Shown piece after piece: positions 22,190 to 46,035 of a stretch of 64,000 nucleotides of DNA (within the stretch, counting starts at the first letter, position 1; each line of letters opens with the position of its first letter). A program made the position numbers and the translations under genes. The notes under the pieces were generated by a model. That model was not told where the DNA came from. It saw only the letters and a program-made list of their open reading frames with translations, and ran no database searches. Origin of the DNA: Escherichia coli (GTDB lineage: Bacteria; Pseudomonadota; Gammaproteobacteria; Enterobacterales; Enterobacteriaceae); NCBI RefSeq assembly GCF_044324875.1, contig NZ_CP172185.1; one strand, written 5' to 3'.

Positions 22190-22272
22190 AAAAAAACCTG
22201 CTGGTGAGGCAGGTTCTTTTATTTACTATTTTCAGGCCCAACACCGCAGCCTGTGCAACATCGTGTTCCAAC
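22190..22272 (-). ncRNA. Predicted OrzO/OrzP-like antitoxin sRNA, copy 1 (about 80 nt)
   Basis: Minus-strand promoter TTGCAA-17-TATAAT (22307-22279), intrinsic terminator (hairpin 22197-22213, T-run on minus strand); 5' ~19 nt complementary to 22419-22438 in the toxin 5' UTR. Confidence 0.5.
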
Positions 22273-22278
22273 GAACGA

Positions 22279-22329
22279 ATTATAACCATCGGTGGACCCC
22301 GTTGCAATTAAGATAATGAGATTTATAAT
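22279..22329. promoter_or_regulatory. Back-to-back divergent sigma-70 promoters sharing one palindromic -35 hexamer TTGCAA (copy 1)
   Basis: Plus: TTGCAA(22302-22307)-16-TATAAT(22324-22329); minus: same hexamer, 17-nt spacer, TATAAT (revcomp of 22279-22284). Confidence 0.5.
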
Positions 22330-22510
22330 CCAGACGGTTGGGACGTTGCGCCGGATCGGACCAATTTTAAGTCCTGGCTACCGGACGGGTGGTGCTGCAG
22401 GTGGTGCCCTGATCCGGAGTGCAACATCGTGGTCCAACATACGTAAACCAGTATCGACAGGCAGTGTAAGGGTAAGGTGCTGGTGTTGCGCTCCTTAATA
22501 AGGAGAGCGA

Positions 22511-22600
22511 ATGGACACGCTGACACAAAAGTTAACCGTGCTCATTGCTGTACTGGAGCTATTAGTGGCTCTGTTACGGTTGATTGATTTGTTGAAGTAA
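22511..22600 (+). CDS. Type I toxin-like small hydrophobic protein, 29 aa (ZorO/ZorP-like), copy 1
   Basis: MDTLTQKLTVLIAVLELLVALLRLIDLLK; SD AAGGAG 6 nt upstream, sequestered in a cgctcctt/aaggagcg hairpin; the only two nucleotide differences versus copy 2 are synonymous. Confidence 0.65.
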   Translation: MDTLTQKLTVLIAVLELLVALLRLIDLLK

Positions 22601-22799: not shown

Positions 22800-22880
22800 A
22801 AAAAAACCTGCTGGTGAGGCAGGTTCTTTTATTTACTACTTTGATGTTAAGTTACTGATAGTGCAACATGGCATCTCAAC
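22800..22880 (-). ncRNA. Predicted OrzO/OrzP-like antitoxin sRNA, copy 2
   Basis: Same promoter/terminator layout as copy 1; 5' region complementary to 23027-23046. Confidence 0.5.
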
Positions 22881-22886
22881 GAACGA

Positions 22887-22937
22887 ATTATAACCACCTC
22901 TGGACAGTGTTGCAATTAAGATAATGAGATTTATAAT
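22887..22937. promoter_or_regulatory. Back-to-back divergent promoters sharing TTGCAA (copy 2)
   Basis: TTGCAA at 22910-22915, TATAAT at 22932-22937 (plus) and revcomp of 22887-22892 (minus). Confidence 0.5.
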
Positions 22938-23118
22938 CCTGACTGTTGGGAAGTTGCGCCGGATCGAACCCATTTCAAGTCCTGGCTACCGGACGGGTGG
23001 TGCCGCAGGTAGTGCTCTGATCCGGAGTGCAACATGGCGACTCAACATACGTAAACCAGTATCGACAGGCAGCGTAAGGGTAAGGTGCTGGTGTTGCGCT
23101 CCTTAATAAGGAGAGCGG

Positions 23119-23208
23119 ATGGACACGCTGACACAAAAGTTAACCGTGCTCATTGCCGTACTGGAGTTATTAGTGGCTCTGTTACGGTTGATTGATTTGT
23201 TGAAGTAA
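23119..23208 (+). CDS. Type I toxin-like small hydrophobic protein, 29 aa (ZorO/ZorP-like), copy 2
   Basis: Identical peptide to copy 1 with two synonymous changes (gct/gcc, cta/tta); same sequestered SD. Confidence 0.65.
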   Translation: MDTLTQKLTVLIAVLELLVALLRLIDLLK

Positions 23209-45904: not shown

Positions 45905-46035
45905 CCAAACGACTCGGGGTGCCCTTCTGCGTGAAGGCTGAGAAATACCCGTATCACCTGATCTGGATAATGCCAGCGTAGGGAAGTCACGGACCACCAG
46001 GTCATTGCTTCTTCACGTTATGGCAGGAGCAAACT
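45905..46035 (+). promoter_or_regulatory. TPP (thi-box) riboswitch in the thiM leader
   Basis: Sequence ...ggggtgcccttctgcgtgaaggctgagaaatacccgtatcacctgatctggataatgccagcgtagggaa... is the canonical thiM aptamer; the SD/AUG follow. Confidence 0.9.

What the first reader, a model, noticed from the sequence alone, without database searches (positions are those of the whole stretch)
22279..22329. Toxin and antitoxin promoters are back to back and share one palindromic -35 hexamer
TTGCAA at 22302-22307 is its own reverse complement and sits at -35 distance from a TATAAT on both strands (16-nt spacer on plus, 17-nt on minus). The same arrangement is present in copy 2 (22887-22937). Two RNA polymerases cannot occupy the shared -35 at once, so toxin mRNA and antitoxin sRNA initiation may be mutually exclusive.
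Basis: inference. Interest (0 to 1): 0.5.

Follow-up and report, generated by a model that had tools for sequence, protein, structure and literature searches.

The report
Shared -35 in known zor-orz promoters
The two back-to-back promoters that share one palindromic TTGCAA -35 box are real, but they are the already published promoters of the E. coli zor-orz toxin-antitoxin locus, and only the idea that the two promoters compete for RNA polymerase is new and still untested.

Summary
ATTATA(22279-84)-17 nt-TTGCAA(22302-07)-16 nt-TATAAT(22324-29) and its copy at 22887-22937 are the only exactly shared -35 pairs in the 64-kb window; none of 400 shuffles produced a pair at this quality.

The locus is the known tandem zor-orz type I toxin-antitoxin system between yehL and yehK (Rfam OrzO-P, 29-aa Zor toxin). 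Published start-site data fit both -10 boxes. Placing zor +1 at 22337 reproduces the published 174-nt leader and RBS at +164. Placing orz +1 at 22272 reproduces the published pairing by the sRNA's first 18 nt. The two starts are 65 bp apart.

A 2024 survey already lists TTGCAA as the -35 and TATAAT as the -10 for both zor and orz. The anatomy is therefore in print, although I found no text about sharing or interference.

In 15 units from E. coli and three other Escherichia species, the hexamers and both spacer lengths never vary, while 20 of 33 spacer positions do.

Steric exclusion of two polymerases follows from established structure. Its size in vivo is unknown, and work on -10-sharing promoters shows competition only at high promoter activity.

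Verdict: known locus, sound observation, plausible untested hypothesis, modest interest.

The parts
22302..22307 (.). Palindromic TTGCAA, the -35 hexamer for both P_zor (+) and P_orz (-) in copy 1
   Evidence: Invariant in 15 of 15 units. Listed as the -35 of both zor and orz in PMC11264685 Table 3.
22279..22284 (-). P_orz -10 TATAAT (read on the minus strand), 17-nt spacer to the -35
   Evidence: Invariant hexamer and invariant spacer length.
22324..22329 (+). P_zor -10 TATAAT, 16-nt spacer from the -35
   Evidence: Invariant hexamer and invariant spacer length.
22285..22301 (.). orz-side spacer, 17 nt, G+C-rich and variable in sequence (12 of 17 columns vary) but constant in length
22308..22323 (.). 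zor-side spacer, 16 nt, A+T-rich here, 8 of 16 columns vary, constant length. It lies at -36..-51 of P_orz, where an UP element would sit (inference).
   Evidence: and direct reading
22190..22272 (-). Orz sRNA antitoxin of copy 1. Inferred +1 is G at 22272, 7 nt after the -10; the intrinsic terminator is at its 3' end.
   Evidence: Rfam RF02083, 101.3 bits, 22265-22190. The 5' end is inferred from the published pairing by the first 18 nt and the computed pairing. Terminator.
22337..22510 (+). zor mRNA 5' UTR of copy 1 (174 nt). +1 is G at 22337, 8 nt after the -10. The Orz target is +84..+102 (22420-22438) and the RBS AAGGAG is at +164 (22500).
   Evidence: reproduces the published values: 174-nt UTR, RBS +164..+169, EAP (exposed after processing) region +73..+102.
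22511..22600 (+). zor toxin ORF, 29 aa, MDTLTQKLTVLIAVLELLVALLRLIDLLK
22910..22915 (.). Shared TTGCAA -35 of copy 2
22887..22892 (-). P_orz -10 of copy 2 (17-nt spacer)
22932..22937 (+). P_zor -10 of copy 2 (16-nt spacer)
22800..22880 (-). Orz sRNA of copy 2, inferred +1 G at 22880
   Evidence: Rfam RF02083, 91.7 bits, 22873-22800
22945..23208 (+). zor mRNA of copy 2: +1 at 22945, 174-nt UTR, ORF 23119-23208 encoding the same 29-aa protein

Best explanation
This is the core promoter region of the known zor-orz type I toxin-antitoxin locus. Two sigma70 promoters lie back to back on a 51-bp pseudo-symmetric element and use the same 6 bp, TTGCAA, as their -35 box. TTGCAA is the only 6-bp palindrome that reads TTG on both strands. 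P_orz (17-nt spacer, +1 at 22272) makes the ~83-nt antitoxin sRNA. P_zor (16-nt spacer, +1 at 22337) makes the toxin mRNA with its 174-nt leader. The two starts are 65 bp apart.

Only one sigma region 4 can sit in the major groove of that hexamer, and each polymerase's upstream contacts cover the partner's spacer and -10. A given DNA copy can therefore hold a polymerase at one promoter or the other, not both.

The most likely functional result is ordinary occupancy-dependent promoter competition. It would probably favour the antitoxin promoter, which has the optimal 17-nt spacer and A+T-rich DNA where an UP element would sit. This would add a modest transcriptional bias on top of the established RNA-level repression, which works through Orz pairing, RNase III cleavage, and a self-inhibitory leader. 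When P_orz activity falls, P_zor would gain access.

Shown here: the anatomy, the fit to published start sites, and the conservation pattern. Inferred: steric exclusion, from general RNA polymerase structure. Unknown: the direction and size of any effect on expression.
For: Hexamers and spacers.
Non-chance.
Locus identity: Rfam OrzO-P hits; position between yehL and yehK; 29-aa Zor ORF, 174-nt UTR, RBS at +164 and Orz pairing at +84..+102.
Published start-site mapping and numbers.
Published assignment of TTGCAA and TATAAT to both genes, with identical conservation figures for the -35 (99.4/99.4 and 99.7/99.7).
Selection on hexamers and spacing: 0 of 18 hexamer columns vary against 20 of 33 spacer columns, with spacer lengths fixed at 17 and 16 in 15 units from E. 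coli, E. whittamii and two other Escherichia species.
Neither promoter has an extended -10 TG, so both should need the -35.
RNA polymerase competition is experimentally established at overlapping promoters when activity is high (PMC12825309; PMC4207663 discussion).
Against: No experiment on zor-orz tests whether the promoters interact; I found none in six papers.
At five native -10-sharing bidirectional promoters, basal activity was too low for any competition.
Both RNAs are detected in the same cultures, so any exclusion applies per template and per moment, not per cell population.
The claimed advantage of P_orz (spacer, A+T-rich upstream DNA) is inference from consensus rules only.
The start sites were mapped in EDL933, not in this strain, and I could not see the primary figures.
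Confidence: 0.5

Rival explanations
1. The -35 is shared in anatomy but the promoters act independently. Polymerase dwell time at each is short enough that the partner is almost never blocked. The arrangement would then be a by-product of compaction and of how the locus arose: an antitoxin promoter of the TTGCAA-17-nt type, as in agrA and agrB, whose palindromic -35 was co-opted by the toxin promoter. It would carry no regulatory meaning.
For: Native -10-sharing bidirectional promoters show no competition at basal activity. The agrA and agrB antitoxin promoters of the related dinQ locus also read TTGCAA-17 nt-TAGCAT/TAGTAT, and the zor leader aligns with the dinQ leader at 64% over 143 nt, so TTGCAA may simply be inherited. 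Species-level conservation of -10 and -35 boxes is about 100% for ordinary genes too (discussion). Both promoters have C two bases after the -10. From my own knowledge of discriminator effects, this tends to give short-lived open complexes.
Against: Both promoters score 10 of 12 with a perfect -10, well above the weak promoters for which competition was absent. Orz is described as abundant in exponential phase, which implies frequent occupancy of P_orz. Spacer lengths are invariant while spacer sequences diverge, although that is expected for any functional promoter pair.
Confidence: 0.33
2. The two promoters help each other. Divergent transcription puts negative supercoils into the 65-bp gap and eases opening of the partner. 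In addition, each A+T-rich -10 box lies at about -52 to -58 of the partner, where a distal UP-element subsite would contact the alpha C-terminal domain. The arrangement would then couple toxin and antitoxin transcription positively and keep their ratio stable.
For: Geometry: the P_zor -10 is at -52..-57 of P_orz, and the P_orz -10 is at -53..-58 of P_zor. Reciprocal stimulation between divergent start sites has been reported for bidirectional promoters, although through a different contact. Supercoiling dependence of divergent E. coli promoter pairs is a studied phenomenon (PMC4469952, listed).
Against: Stimulation through supercoiling needs an elongating polymerase that has already left. It does not remove the clash at the -35 during initiation. 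No UP-element consensus is present, only A+T richness, and in the EDL933 zorO copy the zor-side spacer is less A+T-rich. No data exist for this locus.
Confidence: 0.1
3. Only one of the two promoters really uses TTGCAA. The other would fire without -35 contacts, or the conserved hexamer would primarily be a binding site for an unidentified regulator.
For: -35 boxes are dispensable at some promoters. Expression of the locus is reported to respond to carbon source and growth phase, which hints at unknown regulators.
Against: Neither promoter has the extended -10 TG that usually compensates for a missing -35. Spacing to both -10 boxes is fixed at 16 and 17 in all 15 units. Apart from the hexamers and 7-nt arms at the -10 boxes, there is no extended conserved palindrome that could be an operator.
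Confidence: 0.05

Closest known systems
zorO-orzO / zorP-orzP type I toxin-antitoxin locus of E. coli (Fozo et al. 2010 PMC2887945; Wen et al. 2014 PMC3919570; Wen et al. 2017 PMC5397157; mSystems 2024 PMC11264685; Rfam RF02083)
   Same: It is this locus. It has the same yehL-yehK position, tandem units, 29-aa toxin, 174-nt leader, divergent sRNA pairing through its 5' end, and the same published promoter hexamers (TTGCAA -35 and TATAAT -10 for both genes).
   Different: The strain is not EDL933: about 94.5% identity to O157:H7 and 99.9% to strain Ecol_316. Copy 1 combines an OrzP-type sRNA 5' end with a ZorO-type protein, and copy 2 has a third pairing-region variant. The papers I could read do not discuss the shared -35 or promoter interference.
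[quoted passage not shown]
   Same: Two divergent promoters have overlapping polymerase binding sites, so one bound polymerase excludes the other. Promoters of unequal strength can then behave as a switch.
   Different: In pLS20 the -10 and -35 of one promoter coincide with the -35 and -10 of the other, and a regulator (RcoLS20) drives the switch. Here only the -35 is shared, the -10 boxes are 39 bp apart, and no regulator is known. Details of the 434 case are from my memory, because the paper was not held.
Bidirectional promoters in the sense of Warman and Grainger (bioRxiv 10.1101/2020.01.31.928960; NAR 2026 PMC12825309)
   Same: Divergent transcription arises from the symmetry of a core promoter element. 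Steric competition between two polymerase orientations has been tested experimentally.
   Different: That class is defined by start sites 7-25 bp apart with overlapping -10 boxes and separate flanking -35 boxes. Here the start sites are 65 bp apart, the -35 is shared and the -10 boxes are separate, which is the mirror-image layout. The authors exclude 'separate promoters that are divergent' from their class.
dinQ-agrA/agrB, shoB-ohsC and tisB-istR-1 divergent type I loci of E. coli K-12
   Same: The antitoxin sRNA is transcribed divergently from the toxin and pairs with its long 5' UTR. The agrA and agrB promoters use the same TTGCAA -35 with a 17-nt spacer. The zor and dinQ leaders are alignable.
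   Different: In these loci the toxin promoter does not use the antitoxin's -35. The dinQ promoter overlaps LexA operators about 30-50 bp away from the agrA TTGCAA (the start-site position is my estimate). The shoB promoter lies about 70 bp from the ohsC -35. tisB and istR-1 are further apart.

Membership tests
zor-orz type I toxin-antitoxin locus (Rfam RF02083 OrzO-P) | sRNA matching the OrzO-P covariance model above its gathering score | tested here: met
   101.3 and 91.7 bits against a gathering score of 60, at 22190-22265(-) and 22800-22873(-).
zor-orz type I toxin-antitoxin locus (Rfam RF02083 OrzO-P) | Divergent 29-aa hydrophobic Zor ORF with an AAGGAG RBS and a 174-nt 5' UTR | tested here: met
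   both copies encode MDTLTQKLTVLIAVLELLVALLRLIDLLK, with the RBS at +164 and a 174-nt UTR when +1 is 8 nt after the -10.
zor-orz type I toxin-antitoxin locus (Rfam RF02083 OrzO-P) | The 5' end of Orz is complementary to the zor leader: at least 15 continuous nt, or 17 nt with one internal mismatch | tested here: met
   copy 1 has 12+6 pairs with one mismatch at +84..+102. Copy 2 has 11 pairs, one G-U, one mismatch, then 6 pairs.
zor-orz type I toxin-antitoxin locus (Rfam RF02083 OrzO-P) | Location in the yehL-yehK/yehI intergenic region of Escherichia | tested here: met
   described as the yehI-yehL region in PMC2887945.
zor-orz type I toxin-antitoxin locus (Rfam RF02083 OrzO-P) | Toxicity of Zor and rescue by the cognate Orz | not testable with these tools
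   Shown for the EDL933 alleles in PMC3919570, not for this strain's alleles.
sigma70 promoter (each of the two) | -35-like and -10-like hexamers separated by 16-18 bp | tested here: met
   TTGCAA/16/TATAAT (+) and TTGCAA/17/TATAAT (-), 10 of 12 each.
sigma70 promoter (each of the two) | Experimentally mapped start site 6-9 nt downstream of the -10 | tested here: met
   This is indirect. Published UTR length, RBS position and 5'-end pairing, all from EDL933 primer extension, place +1 at 22337 and 22272.
Bidirectional promoter in the sense of Warman and Grainger | [quoted passage not shown] | tested here: not met
   The start sites are 65 bp apart and the -10 boxes are separated by 39 bp.
Overlapping divergent promoters subject to RNA polymerase competition | The core recognition elements of the two promoters physically overlap | tested here: met
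   The same 6 bp serve as -35 on both strands.
Overlapping divergent promoters subject to RNA polymerase competition | Weakening one promoter raises the other, or strengthening one lowers the other | not testable with these tools
   This needs in vitro transcription or reporter assays. I found no such data for zor-orz.

The most novel reading that the evidence does not exclude
The shared -35 would act as a per-chromosome toggle. While a polymerase sits at the strong antitoxin promoter, the toxin promoter is shut. When P_orz activity drops, as reported for stationary phase, P_zor is released automatically without any regulator. Toxin and antitoxin transcription would then be anticorrelated in single cells. 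[quoted passage not shown]
Probability: 0.12. Interest if true: 0.55.

Novelty: already known. Interest (0 to 1): 0.28.

Why it matters
[quoted passage not shown] How and when the toxin escapes repression is an open question, and for zor-orz the regulatory mechanism is described as still to be deciphered. A built-in competition between the toxin and antitoxin promoters would be a simple, regulator-free way to link a fall in antitoxin synthesis to a rise in toxin synthesis.

It would also be a natural test case for -35 sharing, the mirror image of the -10-sharing bidirectional promoters now being studied. The test is cheap: two -10 knockouts and one insertion that splits the -35.

As things stand, the anatomy is already published and the consequence is conjecture. 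The value of this finding is a well-posed hypothesis on a known locus, not a discovery.

Tried and rejected
1. Nucleotide-resolution start-site tables. The Fozo 2010 supplement (primer-extension figure S4) is not held. Thomason 2015 dRNA-seq is not held. The Cappable-seq GTF is cut to about one eighth of its size (247,189 characters of a 2,008-kb file); I did not open it and assumed it would stop short of this locus. The mSystems 2024 supplement as stored lacks the query sequences. I therefore reconstructed the start sites from numbers in the main texts.

2. Warman-type bidirectional promoter. Rejected, because the start sites are 65 bp apart and the -10 boxes are separate.

3. A transcription-factor operator centred on TTGCAA. 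Only the hexamers and 7-nt arms at the -10 boxes are symmetric, and the spacers are not conserved. I found no support for an operator.

4. The same shared -35 in sibling loci. In dinQ-agrA the TTGCAA serves agrA only, and the dinQ promoter lies at the LexA boxes. In shoB-ohsC a minus-strand TTTACA overlaps the ohsC -35, but the published shoB promoter is elsewhere. For tisB-istR-1 the scan found nothing comparable.

5. Species-level scan anchored on the Orz terminator. It gave only three further Escherichia species plus three chance hits in unrelated bacteria, so divergence in the sample is limited.

6. Literature search for an explicit description of shared -35 divergent promoters. It returned overlapping-promoter systems of other geometries only. 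The phage 434 paper could not be read.

7. A third near-shared -35 at about 59263 (offset 1 bp, 9 of 12 each). This is at the frequency expected by chance, 0.40 per shuffled window, so I did not pursue it.

Full report
**1. What is in the sequence**

The window between 22080 and 23260 holds two tandem units of about 608 bp. In each unit the consensus scan finds two promoter-like sites that use the same six base pairs as their first hexamer.

- Copy 1, + strand: TTGCAA 22302-22307, 16 nt, TATAAT 22324-22329.
- Copy 1, - strand: the same TTGCAA, 17 nt, TATAAT read from 22284 to 22279.
- Copy 2: the same arrangement at 22887-22937.
- Each promoter matches 10 of 12 consensus positions, and none has an extended -10 TG.
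- TTGCAA is a perfect palindrome. The -10 boxes form 7-nt inverted arms, ATTATAA and TTATAAT, around it.

**2. Is it more than chance?**

I re-implemented the scan criteria over the whole 64-kb window. There are 28 (+) and 25 (-) promoter-like sites, and only the two zor-orz copies have an exactly shared -35.

In 400 dinucleotide-preserving shuffles, exactly shared pairs average 0.0125 per window at the 9/12 threshold. None of the 400 has a pair where both promoters reach 10/12. The literal 18 bases are expected about 1e-6 to 1e-5 times per window.

The two copies are paralogues, so this is one event. TTGCAA is also the only 6-bp palindrome that offers TTG, the best-conserved part of the -35, on both strands; this can be read directly from the sequence.

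**3. What the locus is**

- Rfam places OrzO-P antitoxin sRNAs (RF02083) at 22190-22265 and 22800-22873 on the minus strand, at 101 and 92 bits against a gathering score of 60.
- The region lies between yehL and yehK. It matches 5,234 of 5,426 complete E. coli genomes, best at 99.9% to strain Ecol_316 and about 94.5% to O157:H7.
- Each unit encodes the 29-aa peptide MDTLTQKLTVLIAVLELLVALLRLIDLLK.

This is the zor-orz type I toxin-antitoxin locus. It was discovered in O157:H7 EDL933 as z3289/z3290 with sRNA-1 and sRNA-2 (PMC2887945) and characterised as zorO-orzO and zorP-orzP (PMC3919570; PMC5397157).

**4. Do the promoters fit mapped start sites?**

Fozo et al. mapped the starts of both mRNAs and both sRNAs by primer extension. 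[quoted passage not shown] They also state that the first 18 nt of OrzO form the pairing region.

- **zor:** If zor +1 is the G at 22337, 8 nt after the -10, the window reproduces the RBS at +164, a 174-nt UTR, and an Orz target ending exactly at +102. This holds in both copies.
- **orz:** If orz +1 is the G at 22272, 7 nt after the minus-strand -10, the sRNA's first 19 nt pair with +84..+102. The RNA runs 83 nt to the end of the Rfam match (22190), the terminator U-run, which matches the reported ~80-85 nt.

The two start sites are 65 bp apart in both copies.

One caveat applies. The mapping was done in EDL933, and I could not see the primary figures or any dRNA-seq table.

**5. Was this already known?**

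Wen et al. 2014 Figure 1A boxes the predicted -35 and -10 elements. The 2024 mSystems survey of 2,439 full loci and 656 orz-only loci lists '-35 (TTGCAA)' and '-10 (TATAAT)' for both Zor and Orz. The -35 conservation is identical for the two genes (99.4/99.4 and 99.7/99.7), as expected if they are one and the same hexamer.

The anatomy is therefore in print. In the text of six papers on the system I found no statement that the -35 is shared, and no mention of promoter interference or partner-knockout experiments. A 2025 review says the regulation of the locus remains to be deciphered.

**6. Conservation**

I collected units with an anchor that is independent of the promoter, the Orz terminator. 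The 15 units come from:

- this window;
- five other zor/orz-bearing E. coli loci, including O157:H7;
- a K-12 orz-only locus;
- E. whittamii and two unnamed Escherichia species.

All 15 keep ATTATA-17-TTGCAA-16-TATAAT. Among 12 distinct 101-nt sequences, 0 of 18 hexamer columns vary against 20 of 33 spacer columns (Fisher p about 1e-5). Both spacer lengths are fixed.

The sequences are related and the sample is shallow, so this is descriptive. It is the pattern expected of two working promoters locked to one -35.

**7. How it most likely works**

From established knowledge of sigma70 holoenzyme, region 4.2 inserts a helix into the major groove at the -35, and the open complex protects roughly -55 to +20. 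A second polymerase in the opposite orientation would need the same groove of the same 6 bp. Its upstream contacts would also lie over the partner's spacer and -10. Simultaneous canonical binding is therefore excluded. This step is inferred, not measured here.

Whether exclusion matters depends on occupancy. At five native promoters that share a -10 box, competition was undetectable at basal activity. It appeared when one direction was strengthened by -35 'up' mutations or by activators, and it also lowered expression noise (PMC12825309). The pLS20 Pc/Pr work makes the same point for overlapping promoters of unequal strength.

The zor and orz promoters are strong on paper (10 of 12, perfect -10), and Orz is abundant in growing cells. 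Measurable competition is therefore plausible.

P_orz has the optimal 17-nt spacer. The 24 bp upstream of its -35 (22308-22331) are 79% A+T, against 50% for the corresponding 24 bp of P_zor (22278-22301); these counts are read. I infer a bias toward the antitoxin.

I rate the possible outcomes as follows:

| Outcome | Probability |
|---|---|
| Modest competition that favours the antitoxin | ~0.5 |
| Functional independence | ~0.33 |
| Net positive coupling, through supercoiling or the partner's -10 acting as distal UP-like DNA | ~0.1 |
| One-sided use of the hexamer | ~0.05 |

A strong toggle is a subset of the first outcome, at about 0.12.

**8. Comparison with known systems**

The locus is a member of the zor-orz family, and every testable defining feature was met.

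The promoter layout is not a bidirectional promoter in the Warman/Grainger sense, because those have start sites 7-25 bp apart with overlapping -10 boxes. It is the mirror image: a shared -35 with separate -10 boxes.

It belongs conceptually with overlapping divergent promoters subject to polymerase competition, such as pLS20 Pc/Pr and phage 434 PR/PRM (title only).

Among sibling divergent type I loci, the agrA and agrB promoters also read TTGCAA-17-TAGCAT/TAGTAT, and the zor leader aligns with the dinQ leader. However, the dinQ, shoB and tisB promoters do not use the antitoxin's -35. The zor-orz layout looks like a compacted version of the dinQ-agr layout without LexA control. That is an evolutionary inference only.

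**9. Verdict**

The promoters and the shared -35 are real and fit published start sites. Mutual exclusion is sound as physics but untested as regulation.
- Novelty: already known locus and promoter elements. The competition hypothesis appears not to have been stated for this system and is cheaply testable.
- Interest is modest, at 0.28.

Noticed in passing
L002 1400-1510 (E. coli K-12-type orz-only locus), equivalent to window 22279-22370: In K-12-type strains the toxin gene is deleted, but the whole shared-promoter element, including the P_zor -10, is intact. The orphan P_zor points into the 3' end of the convergent yehK gene about 50 bp away, and I read no terminator-like hairpin in the intervening sequence. 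It could therefore make an antisense RNA to yehK. The mSystems paper reports 100% conservation of the zor -10 in 656 orz-only loci.
   Followed up: partly
window 22265-22272 and 22873-22880: The Rfam OrzO-P model starts 7 nt downstream of the Orz 5' end implied by the published 'first 18 nt pair with zorO'. The model therefore omits GUUGGAA / GUUGAGA, which are part of the pairing region.
   Followed up: partly
window 22254-22272 / 22420-22438 and 22862-22880 / 23028-23046: This strain's units are mosaics relative to EDL933. Copy 1 has an OrzP-type sRNA 5' end but encodes the ZorO-type protein (T3). Copy 2 has a third pairing-region variant. Each Orz pairs with its own zor with one internal mismatch (12+6 pairs; 11 pairs plus G-U, then 6). 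The target region and the sRNA 5' end appear to co-vary between units.
   Followed up: partly
L013 1228-1256 and 1459-1487 (E. coli K-12 dinQ-agrAB locus): The agrA and agrB antitoxin promoters read TTGCAA-17 nt-TAGCAT and TTGCAA-17 nt-TAGTAT, the same -35 and spacer length as P_orz. The zor 5' UTR aligns with the dinQ 5' UTR at 64% identity over 143 nt. This suggests that zor-orz and dinQ-agr share ancestry, including the antitoxin promoter.
   Followed up: partly
window 22195-22215 and 22805-22825: The Orz terminator hairpin has an A-run on one side and a T-run on the other, and it is scored as a terminator on the + strand as well. In copy 2 it could stop read-through from the upstream zor gene before it reaches the next shared promoter.
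   Followed up: no
L014 1463-1490 (shoB-ohsC, K-12): A minus-strand promoter-like site (TTTACA-16-TAGCAT) overlaps the ohsC -35 TTGTAA by 5 bp, which is a near-palindromic -35 similar in style to zor-orz. It is not the published shoB promoter. It may be cryptic or a chance match.
   Followed up: no
window 62965-63050 (-) and 45905-46001 (+): There is a CyaR/RyeE sRNA (100.7 bits) and a TPP riboswitch (71.2 bits), both ordinary E. coli features.
   Followed up: no
window ~59263: A third pair of divergent promoter-like sites has -35 hexamers offset by 1 bp (TTGGCA, 9 of 12 each). This occurs at the frequency expected by chance, 0.40 per shuffled window.
   Followed up: no
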